This document shows, one piece after another, positions 24,001 to 27,000 of a stretch of 64,000 bases of DNA. Source of the stretch: an uncultured Gemmatimonadales bacterium (lineage in GTDB: Bacteria; Gemmatimonadota; Gemmatimonadetes; Palauibacterales; Palauibacteraceae); NCBI GenBank assembly GCA_963783385.1, contig CAWANJ010000001.1, forward strand, positions 500,415-564,414. Direction: 5' to 3'. How positions within the stretch are numbered: position 1 is the stretch's first letter; the number at the start of each line of letters is the position of its first letter. Made by a program: the position numbers.

Positions 24001-27000
24001 TTCGTCCACGGCCAGGGAGGGGTCCGGGTTCCAGACCGGCCCCTCGAGGAGCGAATCCGGGAGGGAGTCCCTCCACACCGGGGCGAGCCGGATGGCTCCC
24101 GAATCGAGAACCGGCGTCGCCGGGCTGCGAACCACCGTGACGCCCCCCACGGTGTCGACCGTGCCCTCCCAGCGGGGTCCCCCGAGCTGGGAGATCATCC
24201 GACACCCCGACGCCACCACCCCGGCCAGCAGGACGAGGATCACGCCCCGGCCCGGAGCTCCCGGCCCTCCGCCCCCGATCACCTCAGTGGTGCCTGCCGT
24301 CCCGGGTCCACACGATGATCGTGGCGCACTGACCGGTGAAGCCACGGTAGACGAACTGCGGTGGCGTCTCCGAGCCGCTGCGGTAAATCTCCATGGCGAG
24401 GATGGCCTCGGGGGACAGGTCGTCGATCGCGAGGTTCGGCATCGGCTGGTTGTTCACCCAGATGAAGGGCGTGCACCAGCGCTGGCCCCGAGGCACCCTG
24501 ATGGAGGTGTGACCGACGGTCGACTCTCCGACCGAGATCCCCGGGAGTCCCCGGAGCAGATCCGCCGATTTGTTGGCGCGCTCTCGCTTCCTGTCGACCT
24601 CTGCCGGCGTCAGGAACACGCCCTGCCGGGAGCGGCGCCGGTTCTCGAACCCCGCCAGCCGGTCGATCGGGAGCATGTGACGCACCGTGACGTGGATGTC
24701 CTCGAGCTGGAGGACCGTCTCGCTGAGCATGAGCGTCGCCGTCGTGACCCGGTTCCCCTGCAGCGAGATGGGCACCGATTGGTTGGCGAAGCCGATGAGC
24801 CGGACGTGCAGCGTGTCGGGGCCCGCCGGCACTCCGGACAGGACGAAGTGGCCCGTGCTGTCCGTGTACGTGCCGACGCCCGCCTGCAGGAGCGAGACCT
24901 GCGCGTTGTGCAGGGGCCCGCCCGTCATGGCCGACACCACCTGCCCGCGAAGCACCGCCGTCGTGTCCTTCTCCGCAGCGGCCCCCTGGGCGACCATGTC
25001 CCTGGCGCCCAGGAAGATCGCGGCAGCCGCCAGGGCCGCGCACAGGAGGTAGCGCCCGGGTCCGGGCCCGGCCCGGACGATCGTCGTTGAGGTGCCCATG
25101 CGTACGCTCATCTCGACTGCCAGGCTCCGGAGGGTCGCGCGGTCCGCGAGGGGGCTCACATCGCCTGCAGCTAATATGGTCCTCGGCTCCTCCGGGTTCC
25201 CTGATGCACGAAGCGGGGATGCCGCCACAAAGGCGACACCCCCGCTCCGGTCCGGGCCGCCCTCCGGCCCCGAGGGGTCGGAGGGCTCACGCCGGCGCTC
25301 AGTCCGCCCGAAGCCCTAGGGCTGCGAGACGTCGCACATGCTGAGCTGGTAATTCGTGTTGTTCTGCTCGTTGAACGCGATCTGGAAAGCCACGTCCGTC
25401 CCGAACGTGCCGCCCTTGTAGTAGGGCCCGGACGGGAACACGTCGGCCTCGTTGCGCCCGTACTGCCGGATGAGCCGGCGCAGGTCGCCGAGCCGGTGGC
25501 CCGTGGCGTACAGCCAGAAGGCGCGCTCCCTGAACATCGTGTCCACGCGAGCAGCCGGAGTCCCTGGATCGGTGATCGCAGGCAGGCTCGTGGCCGTGAC
25601 CTGGTTCGAGAACCCGAAGTCGTTGGGCTCGGGCGGATCGTAGCGCGCCGCGAGCAGGTTCTGAACGTCAGCGCGCAGGGCATTCAGCTTGCTCAGCCAC
25701 GTGCCGGGGTCGCCGTTGTTGAGTGCCGCCTCGGCCTCGATCAGACGGGCCTCGATGCCATCGGCCAGGACCACGTTGGAGCCCTGGAGAGGATAGCGGA
25801 GGCCCACGTACTGCGGAATCGTCTGGTCGAAACCGCCGCTCGGATCCTGCGCCCACGGCACCCGCGGGTCGTTGGCCGACCGGAAGTTCAGGCCATTGCC
25901 GCCCGTACCGTCCGGGTCCGCCACGGCCGTACCCGCCTGACCGTTGGCCACCGAGTAGCGGCCGTTGCTCATCAGGTTGAAGATCGGGTTTTGGTCCGCG
26001 CTCACGGCGGCGTTGTGGTAGATGAGGAAGATGAAGTCGGTCGGCACGGACGACACCGCGGCCGCCGCCCCCGCGTAATCCCCGTTGTCCAGCAGCGCCC
26101 GCGCCTTACCGACCATGGCCAGGTATTTCCGCTGGTTGTCCTTGGCCGCCGAGATGGCGGCGTCGAACGTGTCCGCGGCGGCCGAGAACATCTGGGCCGT
26201 CGTCAGCGGAGTGCCCAGGTCGGTGGGCGCGAAGTTCTCCGTGCTGCTGAAGGGAATGTTGGAGCAGAAATTCTCGCCCATGGCCGTGTAGTCGTAGCCA
26301 ATGTAGCTCTTCAGCTCGCTGATCCGCGGATCAGCGGCCGACGCGTCGGCCATCAGCTTCTGCGCCGACACGGCCGAAGCGCGGGCAATGTGCAGGTTCC
26401 CGTACGCCGCGTCCGTCGTGTTGCCGTTCTGCGGCGTGAACTGGTCCCTCTGGTCGGTGTGCGTCCGGGTGCTGAACGTCCCGGACGAATACATCTCGTC
26501 CGTGAAGTCGGCCACCGTCGAGAGGATCTCGTCATCCAGCCCGTGGCCGCTGTAGGCCTGCTGGAAGTCCGACAGCGCTCCCGCGAACGCCACATCGGGC
26601 GTCAGGTTCGCCGGGGTGGCGCGCTCGGGATCGACCACCTGGAGCGCGTTCCCCTTGCAGGCTCCCGCGACGAGCGGGAGCCCGAGAGCCAGGAGCCAAA
26701 CCATCGGCAACCCGGCCCGGCCGTTATTTCGTGAAAGATATCTCATGGCTCTATCGTCCTCCTGCCTCAGAAGCTCACGTCGACGCGCGCCGTGAAGATC
26801 CGCGGAGCGGGCTGCGTGTTGAACTCACCCTGGTTGAACTGGGTGTTGCCGCCCTGCTCGATGATCTCCGGGTCGATCCCGTTGTAGCCCGTGAACGTAT
26901 GGAGATTCCGGGCCGCCAGCGTCAGGCTCAGGCCCCTCGTGAAGGGCATGGCGCTGGTCAGCGACTGCGGAGCGTTCATGCGGATCGACAGCTCCCGCCA

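What the first reader, a model, noticed from the sequence alone, without database searches (positions are those of the whole stretch)
24284..25111. Barrel-less plug-only TonB-receptor-like proteins (two paralogs) flanking the SusCD array
Two proteins (24284..25111 minus; 30454..31332 plus) have a signal peptide, a CarbopepD_reg-like beta-sandwich and a TonB-dependent-receptor plug domain. They terminate right after the plug with a shared conserved C-terminus (L[SD]xE.I.A.E.Y......P.Q.....C..I..W.RD) and have no beta-barrel. They are not truncations of the neighbouring SusC genes, because each has its own conserved tail and signal peptide. A free plug domain could occlude or regulate a barrel in trans, or act as a periplasmic TonB-interacting decoy. 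This family appears poorly described.
Basis: partly seen in the sequence, partly recalled or inferred. Interest (0 to 1): 0.55.

Follow-up and report, generated by a model that had tools for sequence, protein, structure and literature searches.

The report
Barrel-less SusC-type plug proteins, Gemmatimonadota
Two genes in this window encode only the front end of a SusC-type outer-membrane transporter (Ig-like domain, TonB-binding motif and plug, with no barrel); they belong to a real, conserved and uncharacterised Gemmatimonadota protein family that often sits beside SusC/SusD genes.

Summary
The ORFs at 24284..25111(-) and 30454..31332(+) are paralogs (30% identity, E 3e-34). Each has a signal peptide, a CarboxypepD_reg (SusC "NTE") domain, a conserved TonB-box-like strand and a TonB-receptor plug. 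Each stops at the plug/barrel junction.

They are not fragments:
- More than 100 homologs are all barrel-less.
- Two Cys, a Trp and a Pro are invariant across 60 diverse members.
- dN/dS against orthologs is 0.16-0.18.
- A model of the C-terminal domain alone hits only TonB-dependent transporter plugs.

The family is seen only in Gemmatimonadota (Palauibacterales, Gemmatimonadaceae, Longimicrobiales). Sources name it only by domain or as hypothetical, and I found no paper on it. About half of the distinct gene neighbourhoods lie next to SusC-SusD pairs. The rest are tandem arrays with no transporter nearby.

Function is inferred, not shown. The most likely reading is a soluble periplasmic, disulfide-stabilised plug that presents a TonB box and engages TonB, modulating SusC-type transport. 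A plug acting in trans on a barrel is a weaker rival.

In passing: both neighbouring SusC genes carry 1-nt frameshifts in this window.

The parts
24284..25111 (-). Barrel-less NTE-TonB box-plug protein 1 (275 aa). NCBI names a 275-aa member of the orthologs' 90% cluster 'carboxypeptidase-like regulatory domain-containing protein'.
   Evidence: Translation, Pfam, homologs all short, dN/dS 0.16 against the L001 ortholog, AF2 pLDDT 80.8, NCBI name.
24983..25111 (-). Signal peptide of protein 1 (residues 1-43, ...LGARDMVAQ|G). Type I, with no lipobox.
   Evidence: Read from the sequence. The hydrophobic stretch followed by A-Q-[EGA] is conserved in the family alignment. The cleavage site is inferred.
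24725..24961 (-). [quoted passage not shown]
   Evidence: Pfam PF13715 E 5e-17. Foldseek hits transthyretin-like domains and the SusC NTE structures 9hfj and 6ytc.
24683..24712 (-). TonB-box-like strand of protein 1: LQLEDIHVTV (residues 134-143). Family consensus LRVEDITVEV.
   Evidence: Aligns with the SusC TonB box LEEVVVT / LKEVVVN. The alternating aliphatic pattern is conserved in 60 members: position 141 is V or I in 59 of 60, at 3.6 bits. The model gives pLDDT of only 47-59 here. The Bt1763 TonB box DEVVVTG is described in PMC7782687.
24299..24664 (-). Plug core of protein 1 (residues ~150-271). It includes the family-specific GFxxR helix, invariant C213 and C262, and the terminal strand CATIIVWTRD.
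   Evidence: Domain-only AF2 model: pLDDT 84, pTM 0.77. The top 39 Foldseek PDB hits are all TonB-dependent transporter plugs. The PDB profile search gives only plug hits.
30454..31332 (+). NTE is at about 30676-30903, TonB-box-like PAIHVSV at 30928-30948, invariant Cys at RLQCTP 31144-31161, and the terminal strand NRCGAILLWSRD at 31288-31323.
   Evidence: dN/dS is 0.18 for the mature part and about 1 for residues 1-40. The ortholog in L001 is also short, 292 aa.
26767..29860 (-). SusC-like transporter 1 (NTE + TonB box + plug + barrel), immediately upstream of the SusD-like gene and protein 1. It is disrupted here by a 1-nt insertion at about 29285.
   Evidence: Pfam barrel plus partial plug, N-terminal part in another frame, indel against L001/L003/L007, repaired reading is 1030 aa.
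25316..26746 (-). SusD-like lipoprotein 1 (476 aa, lipobox LVAGAC). It lies between SusC1 and protein 1.
   Evidence: Sequence; only a weak TPR hit in Pfam. It matches SusD-like ORFs in related loci, some of which carry a Pfam SusD_RagB hit. The synteny SusC-SusD-protein 1 is conserved in L008, and SusD-protein 1 in L009, where the contig starts within the SusD gene.
23047..24282 (-). Lipoprotein of 411 aa (lipobox ASGC) with no Pfam family. Its GTG start lies 2 nt after the stop of protein 1. It is not conserved in all relatives.
   Evidence: Absent in L008, present at 28% identity in L009.
33796..37042 (-). SusC-like transporter 2. Its operon (SusC2, SusD2 at 32322..33791, and two small ORFs at 31874..32239 and 31404..31868) converges on protein 2. 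It is disrupted here by a 1-nt insertion at about 36234.
   Evidence: The ortholog is intact at 1081 aa in L001. The whole block from protein 2 through SusC2 is absent in L008.

Best explanation
Shown: the two genes encode members of a monophyletic family, seen here only in Gemmatimonadota, that consists of the periplasmic/luminal N-terminal module of a SusC-type TonB-dependent transporter with no barrel. The order is signal peptide, Ig-like NTE, TonB-box-like strand, plug. The protein ends at the point where transporters start barrel strand 1.

Compared with SusC plugs, the family:
- gained a roughly 12-residue GFxxR helix after the TonB box;
- lost the long apical plug loop;
- acquired two invariant cysteines.

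Inferred mechanism: the protein is exported by Sec and released into the periplasm as a soluble protein. Its plug folds on its own, held by a C213-C262 disulfide. The flexible TonB box pairs with the C-terminal domain of a TonB protein by beta-strand addition, as in a real transporter, and the NTE perhaps contributes TonB-paralog specificity. With no barrel or substrate channel, the outcome would be occupancy or titration of TonB. That would modulate SusC-type transporters, some of which are encoded next door, rather than transport anything.
For: Identity and architecture:
- Pfam domains and colinear alignment with three SusC N-termini in the same window.
- Domain-only model pLDDT 84; its top 39 PDB matches are all transporter plugs, including Cir, ChuA, OprC, SusC 8aa4, FepA, FhuA and RagA.

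Real, selected genes:
- 33 + 78 homologs, all without a barrel; the full-length hits are 213-399 aa and the C-terminal-domain hits 102-265 aa.
- In about 25 distinct genes the match ends 3-9 residues before the stop codon.
- dN/dS is 0.16 and 0.18.
- C213, C262, W268 and P250 are invariant in 60 members whose mean column identity is 28%.

TonB box:
- The strand L-x-x-[ILV]-x-[VI]-x-[VA] is strongly conserved but predicted flexible.
- It sits where SusC has its TonB box (Bt1763 DEVVVTG, PMC7782687).
- The literature hypothesises that the NTE tunes TonB pairing (bioRxiv 10.64898/2026.09.16.752182).

Link to SusC-type transport:
- Family members lie beside SusC-SusD pairs in at least five non-orthologous contexts: the window twice, L015, L017/L033, L020 and L024.
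- The SusC-SusD-protein 1 order is retained in the 87%-identity ortholog locus (L008), and SusD-protein 1 in the 48%-identity locus (L009), whose contig starts within the SusD gene.

Autonomous fold:
- The isolated FepA plug is unfolded (PMC11658791).
- The family-specific Cys pair and extra helix would explain how this plug could stand alone (inference).
Against: - No binding, localisation or phenotype data exist.
- No TonB/ExbBD genes lie near any family member.
- Many members sit in tandem arrays of two or three between DUF456 and OsmC/Nramp/multicopper-oxidase genes, or next to LemA/TPM genes, with no transporter nearby. A SusCD-specific role therefore cannot hold for all of them.
- Several divergent paralogs per genome, and fused two-module proteins, are not obviously needed for simple TonB titration.
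- The TonB-box assignment rests on position and residue pattern alone.
Confidence: 0.4

Rival explanations
1. Plug acting in trans. The free plug inserts into an outer-membrane barrel and gates or blocks it. The barrel could be a SusC whose own plug has been pulled out, or an unrecognised plug-less barrel.
For: - The family recurs next to SusC-SusD pairs.
- A separately exported FhuA cork can reconstitute with its barrel in vivo (Braun et al. 2003, J Bacteriol 185:5508). The reference is listed in PMC2615193; its content is from my own knowledge because the paper is not held.
- Plug-less SusC particles have been seen by cryo-EM.
Against: - Every SusC seen complete next to a family member has its own NTE and plug: window SusC1 and SusC2 once their frames are repaired, L001, L008 and L033. 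Those in L015 and L020 are cut at the locus or contig end.
- No plug-less barrel was seen in any of about 15 contexts.
- The apical loop that faces the substrate and the barrel lumen is deleted, and a new helix is added.
- A plug held rigid by a disulfide would be hard to thread into a barrel.
- Half of the contexts have no transporter nearby.
Confidence: 0.15
2. An envelope protein unrelated to TonB. The Ig-like domain plus plug fold has been re-used as a generic periplasmic or surface protein-protein or ligand-binding module. One example would be a periplasmic binder for material imported by SusCD. The conserved linker strand would then serve another partner.
For: - Genomic contexts are diverse.
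- Variants exist with 2-5 extra CarboxypepD_reg repeats or two fused modules.
- The isolated FepA plug still binds its ligand weakly (PMC11658791).
Against: - The ligand-contacting apical plug loop is missing.
- The linker strand keeps the exact position and residue pattern of a TonB box.
- Nothing else points to a ligand.
Confidence: 0.25
3. Gene fragments or pseudogenes. These would be remnants of SusC genes truncated after the plug by mutation or assembly error.
For: - The window does contain frameshifted SusC genes.
- In one related contig (L024) a 303-aa 'CarboxypepD_reg+Plug' gene call is indeed a piece of a broken SusC.
Against: - All homologs end at the same position and share family-specific features absent from SusC: two Cys, the GFxxR insert and the loop deletion.
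- They are under purifying selection.
- No barrel-like reading frame follows either gene. A lipoprotein gene follows gene 1, and the 3' end of a converging operon follows gene 2.
Confidence: 0.02

Closest known systems
SusC/RagA-type TonB-dependent transporters (TIGR04056), N-terminal region: NTE, TonB box, plug
   Same: The order and homology of signal peptide, CarboxypepD_reg NTE, TonB-box strand and plug are the same. The plug motifs are recognisable: dLLRxvPGv, the D-G strand, IxAIEVY(k/r)G and the final strand. The two are found in the same genomes and often in the same loci.
   Different: - No 22-strand barrel: TIGR04056 scores 32 bits against a cut-off of 368.
- The apical plug loop is deleted.
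- There is an extra helix after the TonB box.
- Two cysteines are invariant.
- The product is soluble and 240-310 aa long. It cannot be a transporter.
Experimentally separated plug (cork) domains of E. coli FhuA and FepA
   Same: A plug polypeptide with a TonB box, exported without its barrel.
   Different: Those are laboratory constructs. The isolated FepA plug is unfolded (PMC11658791 citing Usher 2001), and the FhuA cork works only with its own barrel (Braun 2003, from my own knowledge). Here the barrel-less form is natural, conserved, under selection, and appears adapted to fold alone.
Isolated SusC NTE domains (PDB 6ytc, 9hfj)
   Same: The N-terminal domain has the same Ig-like, transthyretin-like fold and precedes a flexible TonB box.
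   Different: The NTE has been studied only as a part of SusC, and its function is still unknown (PMC7782687). In this family it is coupled to a free plug.
Multi-repeat CarboxypepD_reg proteins
   Same: They share the repeat. Some family relatives carry 2-5 such repeats before the terminal plug module.
   Different: Generic repeat proteins lack the plug module. They dominate the profile search because of the repeat alone.

Membership tests
TonB-dependent transporter, SusC/RagA type (TIGR04056; Pfam Plug + TonB_dep_Rec_b-barrel) | 22-strand outer-membrane beta-barrel (PF00593) | tested here: not met
   Neither protein has a barrel hit. Both stop at the plug/barrel junction. None of 78 C-terminal-domain homologs carries PF00593.
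TonB-dependent transporter, SusC/RagA type (TIGR04056; Pfam Plug + TonB_dep_Rec_b-barrel) | Plug domain (PF07715) | tested here: met
   Protein 2 scores 36.4 bits against a cut-off of 23.9. Protein 1 scores 18.6 bits, below the cut-off. Most homologs carry PF07715. The domain model of protein 1 hits only transporter plugs.
TonB-dependent transporter, SusC/RagA type (TIGR04056; Pfam Plug + TonB_dep_Rec_b-barrel) | TonB box strand N-terminal to the plug | tested here: inconclusive
   A conserved strand of the right pattern and position is present. TonB binding cannot be tested here.
TonB-dependent transporter, SusC/RagA type (TIGR04056; Pfam Plug + TonB_dep_Rec_b-barrel) | N-terminal CarboxypepD_reg extension (NTE) typical of SusC | tested here: met
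   PF13715/PF13620 E 5e-17 and 2e-10. Foldseek matches the SusC NTE structures.
TonB-dependent transporter, SusC/RagA type (TIGR04056; Pfam Plug + TonB_dep_Rec_b-barrel) | Whole-protein score above the NCBIfam cut-off | tested here: not met
   TIGR04056 scores 32.4 and 14.8 bits against a cut-off of 368.
Barrel-less NTE-plug family of Gemmatimonadota (unnamed; defined here) | The module ends within about 15 residues after the strand C-G-x-I-x-x-W-T | tested here: met
   Both window proteins do so. All aligned homologs and all loci genes do so as well.
Barrel-less NTE-plug family of Gemmatimonadota (unnamed; defined here) | Two invariant Cys, invariant Trp and Pro, GFxxR insert, and deletion of the SusC apical plug loop | tested here: met
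   Both window proteins carry all of these features.
Barrel-less NTE-plug family of Gemmatimonadota (unnamed; defined here) | Intramolecular disulfide and periplasmic location | not testable with these tools
   Inferred from the signal peptide and the invariant Cys pair.
Pseudogene / truncated SusC | Relaxed selection, full-length orthologs elsewhere, barrel remnants downstream | tested here: not met
   dN/dS is 0.16-0.18. Orthologs are short. The downstream ORFs are a lipoprotein gene or a converging operon.

The most novel reading that the evidence does not exclude
Gemmatimonadota make free, self-folding 'transporter front ends' (NTE, TonB box, plug) that act in trans on the TonB/SusC system. 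They could be paralog-specific TonB sinks or brakes, or exchangeable plugs for SusC barrels. Either way this would be a previously unrecognised layer of control over TonB-dependent glycan or peptide uptake. It would also give a natural soluble handle on the unknown function of the SusC NTE.
Probability: 0.3. Interest if true: 0.75.

Novelty: new variant of a known kind. Interest (0 to 1): 0.58.

Why it matters
Plug domains are thought of as obligate inserts of TonB-dependent barrels, and isolated E. coli plugs do not even fold. A conserved, selected, multi-copy family of natural barrel-less plugs with an intact-looking TonB box would change that picture. If the family engages TonB, it is a new kind of regulator of, or competitor for, the limiting TonB machinery. 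It would also be a tractable soluble system for two open questions: what the SusC NTE does, and how the NTE, TonB box and plug are recognised by TonB paralogs. For annotation, 'CarboxypepD_reg + Plug' proteins of about 250-300 aa in Gemmatimonadota should not be dismissed as truncated receptors or named iron receptors.

Tried and rejected
- Foldseek with the full-length model returned only hits to the N-terminal Ig-like domain. A domain-only model was needed.
- The afdb50 fold library was unavailable.
- A PDB sequence search gave only marginal plug hits, E 0.1-0.4.
- A split-transporter idea (plug gene plus a downstream barrel gene) was rejected. The gene 2 nt downstream of protein 1 is a 411-aa lipoprotein with no barrel signature, and it is missing in L008.
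- The whole-library profile search was swamped by multi-repeat CarboxypepD_reg proteins, so its hit counts are not a family size.
Scans with A1 used a single pattern, VVSA[MG]TGGP, so they sample one subgroup.
- An exact look-up of the window protein found no record.
- Rfam found no riboswitch that could have named the SusC substrate.
- There are no TonB/ExbBD genes in the window.
- Braun 2003 could not be read.
- Four literature searches found no paper on barrel-less plug proteins.
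Full report

The window is 70% GC. Its close relatives are metagenome-assembled genomes of Gemmatimonadota, order Candidatus Palauibacterales.

The ORFs at 24284..25111(-) (275 aa) and 30454..31332(+) (292 aa) translate cleanly and have the high GC3 of real genes. Pfam finds a CarboxypepD_reg domain in both (E 5e-17 and 2e-10). It also finds a TonB-receptor Plug: 36.4 bits for protein 2, above the 23.9-bit cut-off, and 18.6 bits for protein 1, below it. 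There is no barrel in either. NCBIfam gives only fragmentary matches to the N-terminal ends of receptor models. The two proteins are paralogs: 30% identity over 223 residues, E 3e-34.

**2. Fragments or a family?**

A word-seeded search of 5.8 billion proteins found 33 relatives of protein 1, all 213-399 aa. A profile of the C-terminal domain alone found 78 proteins of 102-265 aa, none with a barrel domain.

In about 25 distinct genes from fetched contigs, the profile match ends 3-9 residues before the stop codon. In an alignment of 60 diverse members (mean column identity 28%), C213, P250, C262 and W268 are invariant. F155, R158, G164, E241 and Y243 are nearly invariant.

Against orthologs that are 93% identical in DNA, dN/dS is 0.16 for gene 1 and 0.18 for the mature part of gene 2. 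Both are therefore functional genes of a genuine family, not truncations.

The first ~40 codons of gene 2 behave as non-coding (dN/dS about 1), and a pair of compensating 1-nt indels lies at 30578/30590 just downstream. GTG at 30562 is a plausible start.

**3. Anatomy**

An alignment with the N-termini of the three SusC-like genes of the same window is colinear. The elements, in order, are:
- signal peptide;
- NTE;
- a strand LRVEDITVEV (protein 1: LQLEDIHVTV; protein 2: VPAIHVSV) opposite the SusC TonB box LEEVVVT;
- a family-specific insert of about 12 residues (L-x-G-F-x-x-R-x-x-x-G-x-G);
- the plug motifs;
- the final plug strand, family C-G-T-I-V-V-W-T-R against SusC G-V-I-x-I-T-T-K.

The SusC proteins continue into barrel strand 1 after that strand. 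The family stops there. The long apical plug loop of SusC (AGGxGGQ...) is absent.

The full-length AF2 model has pLDDT 80.8, with both domains above 90 and the linker that holds the TonB-box-like strand at 58-59. Its Foldseek hits were all to the Ig-like domain, including the SusC NTE structures 9hfj and 6ytc.

A model of residues 130-275 alone has pLDDT 84 and pTM 0.77. Its top 39 PDB matches are all TonB-dependent transporters: Cir, ChuA, OprC, SusC, FepA, PfeA, FhuA, RagA, FecA and others. They align over 100-138 columns with query TM of about 0.5. The plug assignment is therefore supported by both sequence and predicted fold.

The linker strand keeps an alternating aliphatic pattern across the family (position 139 is I/V/L in 57 of 60; position 141 is V/I in 59 of 60) while being predicted flexible. 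That is the signature of a linear binding motif such as a TonB box. For comparison, the Bt1763 TonB box is DEVVVTG, directly after its NTE (PMC7782687).

**4. Wider family**

A full HMMER scan of 1.84 billion cluster representatives was dominated by giant CarboxypepD_reg repeat proteins. Even so, the best 150 hits included:
- about 30 single-module proteins of 249-310 aa;
- about 20 proteins of 357-1126 aa in which the module sits at the extreme C-terminus behind extra CarboxypepD_reg repeats.

Some of the longer proteins are two complete modules fused head to tail (P0076, P0159). All those inspected have signal peptides.

Source names are 'hypothetical protein', 'carboxypeptidase(-like) regulatory(-like) domain-containing protein' (from Gemmatimonadaceae, Longimicrobiales and Palauibacterales), a bare listing of the two Pfam domains, or, once, an automatic 'iron complex outermembrane receptor protein'. 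No paper describing barrel-less plug proteins was found. A survey of Palauibacterales mentions susCD genes but not these proteins (PMC10469786).

**5. Genomic context**

In the window, gene 1 follows SusC1 (26767..29860) and a SusD-like lipoprotein (25316..26746) on the minus strand. A 411-aa lipoprotein gene starts 2 nt after its stop. Gene 2 is transcribed divergently from SusC1. It converges on the operon SusC2-SusD2-two small ORFs.

The order SusC-SusD-gene 1 is kept in relatives at 95% and 87% protein identity. The 48%-identity locus (L009), whose contig begins inside the SusD gene, keeps SusD-gene 1. The block holding gene 2 and SusC2/D2 is absent from L008.

Other, non-orthologous members also lie next to SusC-SusD pairs:
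- L015 and L017/L033: SusC, SusD and a family member on one strand, with a second family member converging;
- L020 and L024: a family member converging on a SusC-SusD operon.

Another large group forms tandem arrays of two or three genes between DUF456 and OsmC, near Nramp and multicopper-oxidase genes, with no transporter within 6-10 kb. Others sit by LemA/TPM genes. One genome carries both kinds (L007 and L016).

By my count, roughly half of the distinct contexts are SusCD-adjacent. This looks far more than chance for genes that occupy only a few percent of a genome, but it is an informal estimate, not a formal test. It is also clearly not universal.

Every SusC seen complete next to a family member has its own NTE and plug: L001, L008, L033, and window SusC1 once its frame is repaired. 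Window SusC2 also has its own NTE and plug in its N-terminal frame. No plug-less barrel was seen.

**6. Mechanism**

Shown:
- The architecture.
- The plug fold (predicted).
- The family status and purifying selection.
- The conserved TonB-box-like strand.
- The partial association with SusCD loci.

Inferred:
- Periplasmic location, from the type I signal peptide and absence of a lipobox.
- A stabilising disulfide, from the invariant Cys pair in an exported protein. It would explain how this plug could fold alone when the isolated FepA plug does not (PMC11658791).
- Binding of the linker strand to a TonB C-terminal domain. The NTE may add TonB-paralog specificity, as hypothesised for SusC.

A barrel-less TonB-box protein cannot transport anything. 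The most economical reading is that it occupies or titrates TonB and so tunes SusC-type uptake (confidence about 0.4).

Rivals:
- A plug acting in trans on a barrel (0.15). The FhuA cork/barrel reconstitution is a precedent, cited from the reference list and from my own knowledge.
- A TonB-independent envelope module (0.25).
- Gene fragments (0.02).

**7. Novelty and verdict**

This is not a TonB-dependent transporter, because the defining barrel was tested for and is absent. It is a derived, stand-alone version of the transporter's N-terminal module. I rate it a new variant of a known kind. It has no family-level name in the libraries and source names checked, and no paper on it was found in the searches made. 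Its function is unknown, but it is directly testable. Interest is 0.58.

**8. Seen in passing**

- Both SusC genes beside the plug-only genes carry 1-nt insertions in this window: about 29285 (GAGAATG versus GAG-ATG in three relatives) and about 36234 (ACC-G-ACGAAG inside ...GVVLIT|TKSGQSG...). Relatives have intact genes of 1030 and 1081 aa. Whether these are sequencing errors or real pseudogenes is unresolved.
- A 23S-5S rRNA pair lies at 51490..54796 with no 16S in the window.

Noticed in passing
window 29277-29293 (SusC1, minus strand): There is a 1-nt insertion (GAGAATG versus GAG-ATG) relative to three independent relatives (L001, L003, L007). It splits the SusC-like gene into ORFs 28763..29860 and 26767..29484. 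Removing one base restores a 1030-aa protein, the same length as the relatives' SusC gene. It could be a sequencing error or a real pseudogene.
   Followed up: partly
window ~36225-36245 (SusC2, minus strand): The second SusC-like gene switches frame inside ...GANGVVLIT|TKSGQSG.... An extra G in ACC-G-ACGAAG explains it. The ortholog in L001 is intact at 1081 aa. Both frameshifts are in non-homopolymer sequence, and both hit the SusC genes beside the plug-only genes. Every other large gene examined in the window, including SusC3 at 39014..42229, reads as one uninterrupted ORF.
   Followed up: partly
window 51490-54796 (minus strand): 23S and 5S rRNA genes are present, but there is no 16S rRNA gene in the window. 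ORFs and the ATP synthase operon follow within about 1.2 kb upstream of the 23S gene. This suggests an unlinked rRNA arrangement.
   Followed up: no
window 30454-30600: The annotated 5' end of plug-only gene 2 looks non-coding. Against the ortholog it has dN/dS of about 1 over codons 1-40, and a pair of compensating 1-nt indels lies just downstream at 30578/30590. GTG at 30562, just before the signal peptide, is a better start candidate.
   Followed up: partly
window 23047-24282 (minus strand): A 411-aa lipoprotein (lipobox ASGC) with no Pfam family starts 2 nt after the stop of plug-only gene 1. It is present at 28% identity in L009 but absent in L008. Its function is unknown.
   Followed up: partly
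window 25316-26746 (minus strand): The lid lipoprotein paired with SusC1 is not recognised by the Pfam SusD models (only a weak TPR_16 hit), although it occupies the SusD position. By phmmer it matches SusD-position lipoproteins of other Gemmatimonadota loci, some of which carry a Pfam SusD_RagB hit. It appears to be a divergent SusD-like family.
   Followed up: partly
L004-L006, L011/L021, L012/L019, L013, L016 (related loci): There is a conserved Gemmatimonadota locus: DUF456, then two or three tandem barrel-less plug genes, then OsmC. Nramp and a multicopper oxidase lie nearby. Its meaning is unknown. It may hint at a metal or oxidative-stress connection for that paralog group.
   Followed up: no
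L024 8086-11275 (related locus, ENA contig_10535): A SusC gene there is split into three ORFs. The 303-aa 'CarboxypepD_reg+Plug' gene call is therefore a fragment, not a family member. This shows that the architecture alone can mislead in error-prone assemblies.
   Followed up: partly
P0134 (956 aa): This long relative has a weak Sigma70_r2 match at residues 22-58, ahead of its signal/TM segment, several CarboxypepD_reg repeats and the terminal plug module. It may be a mis-called start or a fusion.
   Followed up: no
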